The position numbers and the translations under genes are program-made. Below are positions 6,074 to 6,242 of a stretch of DNA of 38,432 nt, piece by piece. Within the stretch, counting starts at the first letter, position 1. Every line of letters starts with the position of its first letter. Under the pieces are notes generated by a model. The model ran no database searches. It was given only the letters and a program-made list of their open reading frames with translations, and was not told where the DNA came from. Source of the stretch: Escherichia phage T7; the sequence record PV223882. One strand, 5' to 3'.

Positions 6074-6080
6074 TCACACT

Positions 6081-6110
6081 GGCTCACCTTCGGGTGGGCC
6101 TTTCTGCGTT
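6081..6110 (+). terminator. Early rho-independent terminator TE (for host RNAP)
   Basis: GC-rich hairpin ggctcaccttcgggtgggcc followed by a T-rich tract. Confidence 0.8.
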
Positions 6111-6152
6111 TATAAGGAGACACTTTAACGACTCACTAAAGGAGGTACACAC

Positions 6153-6242
6153 CATGATGTACTTAATGCCATTACTCATCGTCATTGTAGGATGCCTTGC
6201 GCTCCACTGTAGCGATGATGATATGCCAGATGGTCACGCTTA
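6153..6242 (+). CDS. 1.5: Gene 1.5 small protein (29 aa)
   Basis: GGAGG RBS then MMYLMPLLIVIVGCLALHCSDDDMPDGHA; too short for the ORF track. Confidence 0.7.

What the first reader, a model, noticed from the sequence alone, without database searches (positions are those of the whole stretch)
6074..6160. Gene 1.4 absent and the phi1.5 promoter altered at the deletion junction
Between TE and the small ORF at 6153 there are only ~45 bp, and the interval between gene 1.3 and gene 1.6 is ~156 bp shorter than I recall for wild type, which matches the size of gene 1.4. The junction reads ...ataaggagacactttaacgactcactaaaggagg, so the promoter-like element upstream of gene 1.5 has TTTAA instead of TAATA at positions -17 to -13. 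Those positions are in the specificity region of T7 promoters, so the promoter is probably weakened.
Basis: partly seen in the sequence, partly recalled or inferred. Interest (0 to 1): 0.4.

Follow-up and report, generated by a model that had tools for sequence, protein, structure and literature searches.

The report
Engineered gene 1.4 deletion clips φ1.5
The window is a published synthetic T7 phage in which gene 1.4 was deliberately deleted, and a one-base coordinate slip in the design swapped three A/T bases at the upstream edge of the φ1.5 promoter, probably weakening a redundant promoter at little cost to the phage.

Summary
Compared with wild-type T7 (NC_001604), the window lacks exactly 156 bp, 7609-7764. 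Window base 6127 is the A of the gene 1.4 ATG, and base 6128 is position -13 of φ1.5. The promoter therefore reads TTTAA|CGACTCACTAAAGGAGG, where wild type has TAATA at -17 to -13.

This is not a natural variant. The window is the complete genome of the synthetic phage T7-B-GJ (Zhang et al. 2025, mBio; listed as PV223882). It is a genome-reduced T7 chassis carrying two endolysin cassettes. The junction is set by the published recombineering primers.

The deletion is one base to the right of the CDS (7608-7763). The coordinates came from the CiPGr study, whose T7 is 39,938 bp and numbered +1, and were applied to NC_001604. CiPGr mutants carry the exact CDS deletion (TTTTA), and the gene 1.7 junction shows the same +1 shift.

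The changed bases lie in the AT-rich upstream element, not in the specificity-loop region. Published variant data suggest roughly 4-20% residual promoter strength, by indirect inference. φ1.1A, φ1.1B and φ1.3 upstream and φ1.6 117 bp downstream make the loss tolerable, and T7-B forms wild-type-size plaques. Known construct, low interest.

The parts
4994..6073 (+). Gene 1.3 (DNA ligase), intact
   Evidence: 359-aa ORF. Identical to NC_001604 6475-7554.
6081..6100 (+). Hairpin of TE, the early terminator for E. coli RNA polymerase (GGCTCACC-TTCG-GGTGGGCC), followed by TTTCTGCGTTT up to 6111; intact
   Evidence: NC_001604 annotates TE at 7588, which is window 6107. The sequence is identical to wild type and folds as an 8-bp stem with a UUCG loop.
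6113..6127 (+). Orphaned gene 1.4 ribosome-binding region (TAAGGAGACACTTT) plus the A of the former ATG; no start codon follows
   Evidence: The left homology arm of primer Amp-ccdB-gp1.4-F ends ...GGAGACACTTTA.
6127..6128 (.). Deletion junction: NC_001604 7608 | 7765. The 156 bp 7609-7764 are removed, that is, gene 1.4 minus its first A, plus the T at -14 of φ1.5
   Evidence: Table S2 of Zhang et al. lists gp1.4 as 7,609-7,764. The in-silico reconstruction reproduces it.
6124..6146 (+). Altered T7 class II promoter φ1.5 (-17 to +6): TTTAA CGACTCACTAAA GGAGGT, with +1 = G at 6141. Positions -16, -15 and -14 are changed; the core from -13 to +6 is wild type
   Evidence: NC annotation places +1 at 7778, mapped through the alignment. 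Among the 17 wild-type T7 promoters, -15 is A in 17/17, -14 is T in 17/17 and -16 is A in 16/17.
6154..6243 (+). Gene 1.5 (29 aa, function unknown), intact with its own Shine-Dalgarno sequence AAGGAGG. It is the only gene lying between φ1.5 and φ1.6
   Evidence: No Pfam match.
6241..6263 (+). Promoter φ1.6, intact (TAATACGACTCACTAAAGGAGAC), with +1 at 6258, 117 bp downstream of the φ1.5 start
6269..6529 (+). Gene 1.6, intact

Best explanation
The window is the complete genome of the engineered phage T7-B-GJ. This is a genome-reduced T7 chassis (T7-B) carrying two PT7-endolysin cassettes.

The absence of gene 1.4 is a deliberate 'seamless' deletion. It was made on a BAC-cloned genome segment by two-round Red/ccdB recombineering with 40-nt homology arms, and the primers fix the junction.

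The deleted interval (7609-7764) has exactly the length of the gene 1.4 CDS but lies one base to its right. The most likely reason is that the coordinates were taken from the CiPGr study, whose T7 genome is 39,938 bp and numbered +1 downstream of the gene 0.5/0.6 region, and were then applied to NC_001604 (39,937 bp).

The TAA stop of gene 1.4 forms positions -17 to -15 of φ1.5, so any whole-CDS deletion rewrites the promoter's upstream edge (TTTTA in the CiPGr mutants). The +1 slip also removes the invariant T at -14, giving TTTAA.

The likely mechanism is as follows. The AT-rich recognition loop of T7 RNA polymerase binds this tract less well, so closed-complex formation at φ1.5 falls several-fold to about 25-fold. 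The core from -13 to +6 is untouched, so some specific initiation at the normal +1 (window 6141) should remain.

The cost to the phage is small. Genes 1.5 onward are still transcribed from φ1.1A, φ1.1B and φ1.3 upstream, whose class II transcripts run on to Tφ (established T7 transcription map, cited from memory), and from φ1.6 117 bp downstream.

Shown here: the identity of the construct, the designed junction, the origin of the offset, and the sequence change in the promoter. Inferred: the size of the weakening and its lack of phenotype.
For: Identity of the construct:
- The window spans T7 end to end, with both 160-bp terminal repeats.
- Deleting the seven Table S2 intervals from NC_001604 gives 36,016 bp. 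This equals the window minus its two cassettes, with 0 indels and 19 substitutions.
- 36,016 + 1,587 + 829 = 38,432. PV223880 (T7-B), PV223881 and PV223883 match the junction region 100%.
- The paper describes PT7-His-lysGH15 at gp7.7 and PT7-lyJDSS3-His at gp10, and lists T7-B-GJ as PV223882. The cassette ORFs have CHAP/Amidase_2/SH3_5 and CHAP/SH3_5 domains.

Designed junction:
- Table S2 gives gp1.4 as 7,609-7,764.
- The Table S6 primer arms end at ...CACTTTA and (reverse complement) start at ACGACTCAC....
- The methods describe Red-ccdB recombineering with 80-nt oligonucleotides and Sanger confirmation.

Origin of the offset:
- NC_001604 annotates gene 1.4 at 7608-7763. The CiPGr record MZ375233 (39,938 bp) annotates it at 7609-7764.
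- CiPGr mutants read CACTTT|TACGACTC, the exact CDS deletion.
- The gene 1.7 junction shows the same +1 shift: GGGAAA|CATAAGG in MZ375285 against GGGAAAA|ATAAGG in the window.

Promoter effect (Komura 2018 S2 File; wild-type mean 169):
- -16T scores 114.5 and -15T scores 115.7.
- Contexts with -14A score 47-94.
- TTTTA-type doubles come to about 14-25% of expectation.
- TTTAACGACTCACGAAAGG, which is the window element plus -4G, scores 0.99 against about 28 expected for -4G/-2A alone, or about 4%.
- The naive product of the single-change effects is about 20%.
- G or C at -16 to -14 gives 4-15%, consistent with AT-tract reading by the AT-rich loop.
- -15 and -14 are invariant in all 17 natural T7 promoters.

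Tolerance: T7-B plaques are comparable to wild type, and burst size is 197 against 224.
Against: - No direct measurement exists of the element TTTAACGACTCACTAAAGGAGG. The estimates come from single-barcode in vitro data on a class III consensus background and assume roughly multiplicative effects.
- Each of the three changes is individually mild and keeps the tract 100% A/T, so the real loss could be small.
- The coordinate-transfer explanation is inferred from matching numbers. The authors do not state it, and their Table S7 entry for the gp1.4 repair oligonucleotide is garbled (left arm printed twice), so the repair oligonucleotide itself could not be checked.
- Read-through of TE by T7 RNA polymerase rests on my recollection of the classical transcription map. 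I did not verify it here.
Confidence: 0.85

Rival explanations
1. The junction began as the exact CDS deletion of the CiPGr lineage (CACTTT|TACGACTC) and later acquired a spontaneous T>A point mutation at -14, possibly under selection.
For: The window and the CiPGr mutants differ by a single base at this junction, which a point mutation could also produce.
Against: The published amp-ccdB primer arms and the Table S2 coordinates encode the A directly. The gene 1.7 junction shows the same +1 shift. All seven junctions are reproduced by applying the Table S2 numbers to NC_001604. T7-B was built from BAC-cloned wild-type segments, not from a CiPGr phage. The change also moves the promoter further from consensus.
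Confidence: 0.03
2. A natural or spontaneously arising T7 deletion variant lacking gene 1.4.
For: T7 stocks readily accumulate deletions in non-essential early genes. The 0.4-0.7 deletion in this same genome sits between short direct repeats and is also seen in other T7 records (MZ375235, 38,457 bp).
Against: The junction has no microhomology and the deletion has exactly the length of the CDS. It occurs only in the PV22388x engineered records among 162 matching phage records. The genome also carries synthetic His-tagged lysin cassettes. The construction is published.
Confidence: 0.01
3. The altered φ1.5 is functionally near-normal (less than 2-3-fold change), because the AT-rich loop reads only A/T content in the minor groove and the tract is still entirely A/T.
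For: The single swaps -16T and -15T each keep about 68% of activity, while G or C substitutions drop to 4-15%. The upstream tract tolerates rearrangement: in Komura's data -13 A>T is neutral (192 against 169), and from memory, not tested here, the T3 and SP6 promoters carry different all-A/T arrangements at -17 to -13. T7-B is nearly as fit as wild type.
Against: Combined changes in the same data set behave worse than multiplicatively (TTTTA contexts 14-25%; the TTTAA context about 4%). -15 A and -14 T are invariant in all 17 natural T7 promoters. Retention in active variants is highest at -14 within this tract (88.5%). Phage fitness says little here because φ1.5 is redundant.
Confidence: 0.2
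4. φ1.5 is effectively dead (less than 1-2% activity), and gene 1.5 is expressed only by read-through from upstream promoters.
For: The closest measured variant (TTTAA plus -4G, with -2A) had 0.6% of wild-type activity. φ1.5 is already a weaker class II promoter with non-consensus -2 and +3 to +6.
Against: That variant carries an additional damaging -4G change (18% on its own). The critical -12 to -5 core and the start site are intact. Variants with four upstream changes, such as CTAAT, still gave 24%.
Confidence: 0.1

Closest known systems
Synthetic phage T7-B-GJ and the T7-B chassis (Zhang et al. 2025, mBio 16:e03582-24; PV223880-PV223883)
   Same: All seven deletion junctions, both lysin cassettes and the total length (38,432 bp) match the description. 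The junction region is 100% identical to PV223880, PV223881 and PV223883.
   Different: Nothing detected. PV223882 itself is not in the searchable collection, so identity to that record rests on the published description and on length arithmetic. The paper does not mention that the gp1.4 deletion alters φ1.5.
CiPGr genome-reduced T7 mutants (Yuan et al. 2022, NAR 50:13183; MZ375237, MZ375285 and related records)
   Same: The same set of non-essential genes is targeted. There is a 156-bp gene 1.4 deletion and a 536-bp gene 1.7 deletion at the same places.
   Different: The CiPGr junctions are exact CDS deletions (TTTTA at -17 to -13 of φ1.5). The window's junctions are shifted +1 (TTTAA), so a third promoter position, -14, is changed.
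Wild-type T7 class II promoter φ1.5 (NC_001604, +1 at 7778)
   Same: Identical from -13 to +6 and beyond (ACGACTCACTAAAGGAGGT), with the same downstream gene 1.5.
   Different: -16 A>T, -15 A>T and -14 T>A. The sequence upstream of -17 is now the gene 1.4 ribosome-binding site and TE, instead of the 3' end of gene 1.4.
T7 promoter upstream-element variants measured by Komura et al. 2018 (PLoS One 13:e0196905)
   Same: They provide activities for the individual A/T swaps at -16 and -15, for -14A in two contexts, and for TTTAA and TTTTA in multiply mutated contexts.
   Different: Measured on the class III consensus to +2, in vitro, with one barcode per variant. The exact φ1.5 junction sequence was not found in the stored part of the table.

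Membership tests
Bacteriophage T7 genome (Teseptimavirus T7) | Colinear nucleotide identity to the T7 reference over the whole length, including the terminal repeats | tested here: met
   99.7-100% identity in every colinear block, with 160-bp repeats at both ends. There are 19 substitutions in 36,016 shared bases.
Engineered phage T7-B-GJ (Zhang et al. 2025) | The seven deletions at the Table S2 coordinates | tested here: met
   The in-silico deletion of NC_001604 reproduces the window backbone with no indels.
Engineered phage T7-B-GJ (Zhang et al. 2025) | PT7-His6-lysGH15 (1.6 kb) at gp7.7 and PT7-lyJDSS3-His6 (0.8 kb) at gp10 | tested here: met
   A 1,587-bp cassette at 16288-17874 encodes an N-terminally His6-tagged CHAP/Amidase_2/SH3_5 protein. 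An 829-bp cassette at 21672-22500 encodes a C-terminally His6-tagged CHAP/SH3_5 protein. Identity to the named lysin sequences themselves was not checked against a reference.
Engineered phage T7-B-GJ (Zhang et al. 2025) | Identity to the deposited record PV223882 | not testable with these tools
   PV223882 is absent from the phage collection. Its sister records PV223880, PV223881 and PV223883 are 100% identical over the regions compared.
T7 RNA polymerase promoter (23-bp, -17 to +6) | Core recognition and initiation bases from -12 to +2, especially CTC at -9 to -7 | tested here: met
   CGACTCACTAAAGG is identical to native φ1.5 and φ1.6. CTC retention in active variants exceeds 98%.
T7 RNA polymerase promoter (23-bp, -17 to +6) | Upstream AT-rich element TAATA at -17 to -13 (-15 A and -14 T invariant in natural promoters) | tested here: not met
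   The window has TTTAA. -15 and -14 depart from bases that are invariant in 17/17 natural T7 promoters, and -16 from the base in 16/17. The tract is still all A/T.
T7 RNA polymerase promoter (23-bp, -17 to +6) | Specific initiation by T7 RNA polymerase at +1 | not testable with these tools
   Needs in vitro transcription or 5'-end mapping. The indirect estimate from Komura's data is 4-20% of native strength.

The most novel reading that the evidence does not exclude
The published T7-B 'seamless' chassis carries a systematic, unreported +1 coordinate error at its deletions downstream of gene 0.7. One consequence is a three-base lesion in φ1.5 that nearly silences this class II promoter. If so, T7-B and its derivatives are in effect φ1.5-knockdown, φ4.3/φ4.7-deleted phages that still form wild-type-size plaques. 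That would be an accidental demonstration that several class II promoters are dispensable together. It may also bear on the very low reporter expression the authors saw at the gp1.4 locus.
Probability: 0.3. Interest if true: 0.2.

Novelty: already known. Interest (0 to 1): 0.1.

Why it matters
Biologically it matters little. The sequence is a laboratory construct, the gene 1.4 deletion is intentional and published, and φ1.5 is one of several redundant class II promoters.

Its practical value is as a caution for phage chassis design. In T7 many stop codons overlap the TAATACG of the next promoter, so 'seamless' whole-CDS deletions rewrite promoter upstream elements. Transferring coordinates between the 39,937-bp and 39,938-bp T7 references shifts every junction by one base.

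Users of the T7-B chassis (PV223880-PV223883, with segments deposited at Addgene) should know that φ1.5 is altered and that φ4.3 and φ4.7 are absent when they interpret expression from the gp1.4 and neighbouring loci.

Tried and rejected
- **Natural deletion variant:** rejected. The junction has no microhomology, the deletion has exactly the CDS length, it is found only in engineered records, and synthetic cassettes are present.
- **Point mutation on a CiPGr junction:** rejected by the primer sequences and by the parallel +1 shift at gene 1.7.
- **New regulatory site at the junction:** the σ70-promoter and intrinsic-terminator scan of 5950-6350 found nothing. It also missed TE, whose T-run is interrupted, so that scan is uninformative.
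- **New RNA structure at the junction:** the RNA fold of 6070-6160 shows only the TE hairpin, with z = -1.1, so no new structure is evident.
- **New ORF from the orphaned gene 1.4 ribosome-binding site:** no ATG, GTG or TTG lies at a usable spacing. The 49-aa GTG ORF at 6094-6243 starts inside the TE stem, has no Shine-Dalgarno sequence, and was dismissed.
- **Exact junction element in Komura's table:** TTTAACGACTCACTA was not present in the stored, truncated part. Only multiply mutated relatives were found.
- **Python comparison with MZ375233 and MZ375285:** this failed because those loci were not exported to /data. I used the record annotation and DNA alignment instead.
- **A search for LysK/PlySs2 T7 papers** found nothing relevant. 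The payloads are named LysGH15 and LyJDSS3 in the source paper.

Full report
**1. The observation**

The sequence at 6113-6159 reads ATAAGGAGACACTTTAACGACTCACTAAAGGAGGTACACACCATGATG. A whole-window comparison with wild-type T7 (NC_001604, fetched as L001) shows two colinear blocks meeting here. One ends at window 6127 = T7 7608 and the next starts at window 6128 = T7 7765.

Exactly 156 bp (7609-7764) are missing, and there is no microhomology at the junction. Everything around it is wild type:
- gene 1.3 (4994-6073);
- the TE hairpin GGCTCACC-TTCG-GGTGGGCC (6081-6100);
- φ1.6 (+1 at 6258);
- gene 1.6 (6269-6529).

The φ1.5 start site (NC 7778) maps to window 6141. Positions -17 to -13 are therefore 6124-6128 = TTTAA, where wild type has TAATA.

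**2. What the window is**

The window spans T7 from end to end, with both 160-bp terminal repeats. It carries seven deletions and two insertions. Each insertion has a consensus T7 promoter (TAATACGACTCACTATAGG), the gene 10 leader and ribosome-binding site, and a His-tagged ORF:
- 16351-17874 encodes a CHAP + Amidase_2 + SH3_5 protein;
- 21734-22498 encodes a CHAP + SH3_5 protein.

The nearest database records are PV223880 ('recombinant T7-B', 36,016 bp), PV223881 (37,603 bp) and PV223883 (36,845 bp). All three are 100% identical across the junction region. The lengths add up: 36,016 + 1,587 + 829 = 38,432.

These records belong to Zhang et al. 2025 (mBio 16:e03582-24, PMC12153263). That paper describes splitting T7 into BAC-cloned segments and deleting gp0.4-0.7, gp1.4, gp1.7, gp3.8, gp4.3-4.7, gp5.3 and gp7.7 to make the T7-B chassis. 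PT7-His-lysGH15 was then inserted at gp7.7 and PT7-lyJDSS3-His at gp10 to make T7-B-GJ, listed as PV223882.

Deleting the seven intervals of the paper's Table S2 from NC_001604 gives a 36,016-bp sequence. It equals the window minus its cassettes, with no indels and 19 substitutions. The window is therefore this published synthetic phage.

**3. Why the junction looks odd**

Table S2 lists gp1.4 as 7,609-7,764 (156 bp), labelled as NC_001604 coordinates. The amp-ccdB primers have homology arms ending ...GGAGACACTTTA and, in reverse complement, beginning ACGACTCACTAAAGG.... The junction is therefore as designed, and per the paper it was confirmed by Sanger and whole-genome sequencing.

In NC_001604, however, the gene 1.4 CDS is 7608-7763. 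The source of the gene list is the CiPGr study (Yuan et al. 2022, PMC9825161). Its T7 records are 39,938 bp long, and MZ375233 annotates this CDS at 7609-7764. The extra base lies between the end of gene 0.4 (1433 in both records) and the start of gene 0.7 (2021 against 2022).

CiPGr's 'cassette-gene' design deletes entire genes, and its mutants read CACTTT|TACGACTC, the exact CDS deletion. The gene 1.7 junction shows the same displacement: GGGAAA|CATAAGG in MZ375285 against GGGAAAA|ATAAGG in the window.

The simplest account is that CiPGr numbers were applied to the NC_001604 sequence, which shifted the junctions by +1. This is an inference from matching numbers, and the authors do not say so. 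Their Table S7 entry for the gp1.4 repair oligonucleotide is misprinted, with the left arm given twice.

Even the correct design alters φ1.5. The TAA stop of gene 1.4 is -17 to -15 of the promoter, so the CiPGr junction gives TTTTA. The slip adds the -14 T>A change.

**4. Effect on the promoter**

That is imprecise. The specificity loop (residues 739-770) reads the major groove further downstream. Residues N748, R756 and Q758 contact -11/-10, -9 and -8, and CTC at -9 to -7 is the least tolerant part of the promoter. The -17 to -13 tract is contacted by the AT-rich recognition loop (residues 93-101), largely through the minor groove.

Among the 17 natural T7 promoters, -15 is A in 17/17, -14 is T in 17/17 and -16 is A in 16/17. 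The junction therefore lies outside natural variation, although it stays entirely A/T.

Komura et al. 2018 (PMC5937735, S2 File) measured activities in vitro as RNA reads per DNA read:

| Variant | Activity |
|---|---|
| Wild type (five barcodes) | 141-188, mean 169 |
| -2A, the φ1.5 type | 161 and 138 |
| -16T | 114.5 |
| -15T | 115.7 |
| -17C/-14A | 70.9 |
| -14A/-13T | 94 and 47.5 |
| G or C at -16, -15 or -14 | 7-26 |

Combined changes do worse than the product of the singles:
- TTTTG with -2A scored 19.6.
- TTTTA with -6G and +2A scored 2.9, where about 21 would be expected from -6G and +2A alone.
- TTTAACGACTCACGAAAGG, which is the window's element plus one extra -4G change, scored 0.99. 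About 28 would be expected for -4G and -2A alone, so this is about 4%.

The naive product of the three single effects is about 20%. I therefore estimate 4-20% of native φ1.5 strength. The estimate is rough: each variant has a single barcode, the background is a class III consensus, the assay is in vitro, and multiplicativity is assumed. 'Probably weakened' is supported, but it has not been directly shown.

**5. Consequences**

Only gene 1.5 (29 aa, no known function, no Pfam match) lies between φ1.5 and φ1.6. φ1.1A, φ1.1B and φ1.3 are intact upstream. By the classical T7 transcription map (Dunn & Studier 1983, cited from memory and not verified here), class II transcripts run through TE to Tφ. 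φ1.6 fires 117 bp downstream.

Consistent with this redundancy, T7-B forms plaques comparable to wild type and has a burst size of 197 against 224. The paper does not discuss φ1.5 or any regulatory overlap. It does report that the gp1.4 locus gave the lowest PT7-luciferase signal of eight loci, 294-fold below gp10, and no detectable PJ23119 signal. I cannot link that to the promoter lesion.

**6. Verdict**

The feature is a designed deletion in a known synthetic phage. The only unreported aspects are a one-base coordinate slip and the resulting three-base lesion in a redundant promoter. Novelty: already known. Interest: low.

Noticed in passing
window 1-38432: The whole window is a synthetic construct: a T7-B chassis with seven deletions (3,921 bp in all) plus two PT7-endolysin cassettes. 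It matches the published description of T7-B-GJ (PV223882).
   Followed up: yes
window 6529-6564: The gene 1.7 deletion leaves an 11-codon remnant, [11 protein letters not shown]. Its junction is shifted +1 relative to the CiPGr mutants (GGGAAAA|ATAAGG against GGGAAA|CATAAGG). This is the same coordinate offset as at gene 1.4.
   Followed up: yes
window 925-1320 (junction near 1244-1258): The 1,481-bp deletion of genes 0.4-0.7 clips the last 22 nt of gene 0.3 (ocr). The acidic C-terminus YEEDEE is replaced by a 20-aa tail, [20 protein letters not shown]. The junction lies in a short imperfect direct repeat (GGAAGTCGAGGA), which is typical of a spontaneous deletion, and the same-size deletion occurs in other T7 records.
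   Followed up: partly
window 10788-10814 (junction of the 4.3-4.7 deletion): Promoters φ4.3 and φ4.7 are removed together with genes 4.3-4.7. With the altered φ1.5, three of the ten class II promoters are lost or impaired in this chassis.
   Followed up: partly
window 21650-21720: Cassette 2 is inserted directly after the gene 10A stop codon. The -1 frameshift product 10B (minor capsid protein) now ends ...FQSGVIIRLTIGL* and lacks the wild-type 53-aa extension.
   Followed up: partly
window 16027-16290: Only 100 bp of gene 7.7 were deleted. The first 87 codons remain, and the ORF is terminated by the TAA of the inserted TAATACGACTCACTATAGG promoter.
   Followed up: partly
window 4830, 7781, 11458, 15859, 20441, 22583-22841, 25530, 26278-26386, 27753, 30286, 33470-33753, 35904: There are 19 substitutions relative to NC_001604. 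Sixteen fall at non-synonymous positions: gene 1.2 Y59H, 2.8 V33A, 5 D197N, 7.3 V49A, 9 R276S, 11 Y4C and A40V, 12 A732T, 14 G19D and Q55S (two adjacent bases), 15 K312E, 17 T118A, K211E and R212Q, and 19 Q14K. One is synonymous (gene 16 A399A), and two lie in the 10B extension/intergenic region. They are probably differences of the laboratory strain. None lies near the finding.
   Followed up: partly
window 16288-16310 and 21671-21693: The two cassette promoters are consensus from -17 to +2 but continue GGCCTC instead of GGGAGA at +1 to +6. Both are followed by an identical 47-48-bp copy of the gene 10 leader. Together with the native gene 10 leader this makes three direct repeats, which could recombine.
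   Followed up: no
Zhang et al. 2025, supplement Table S7 (not in the window): The printed HA-gp1.4 repair oligonucleotide is the left homology arm repeated twice. This cannot be the oligonucleotide that produced the observed junction and is presumably a typographical error.
   Followed up: partly
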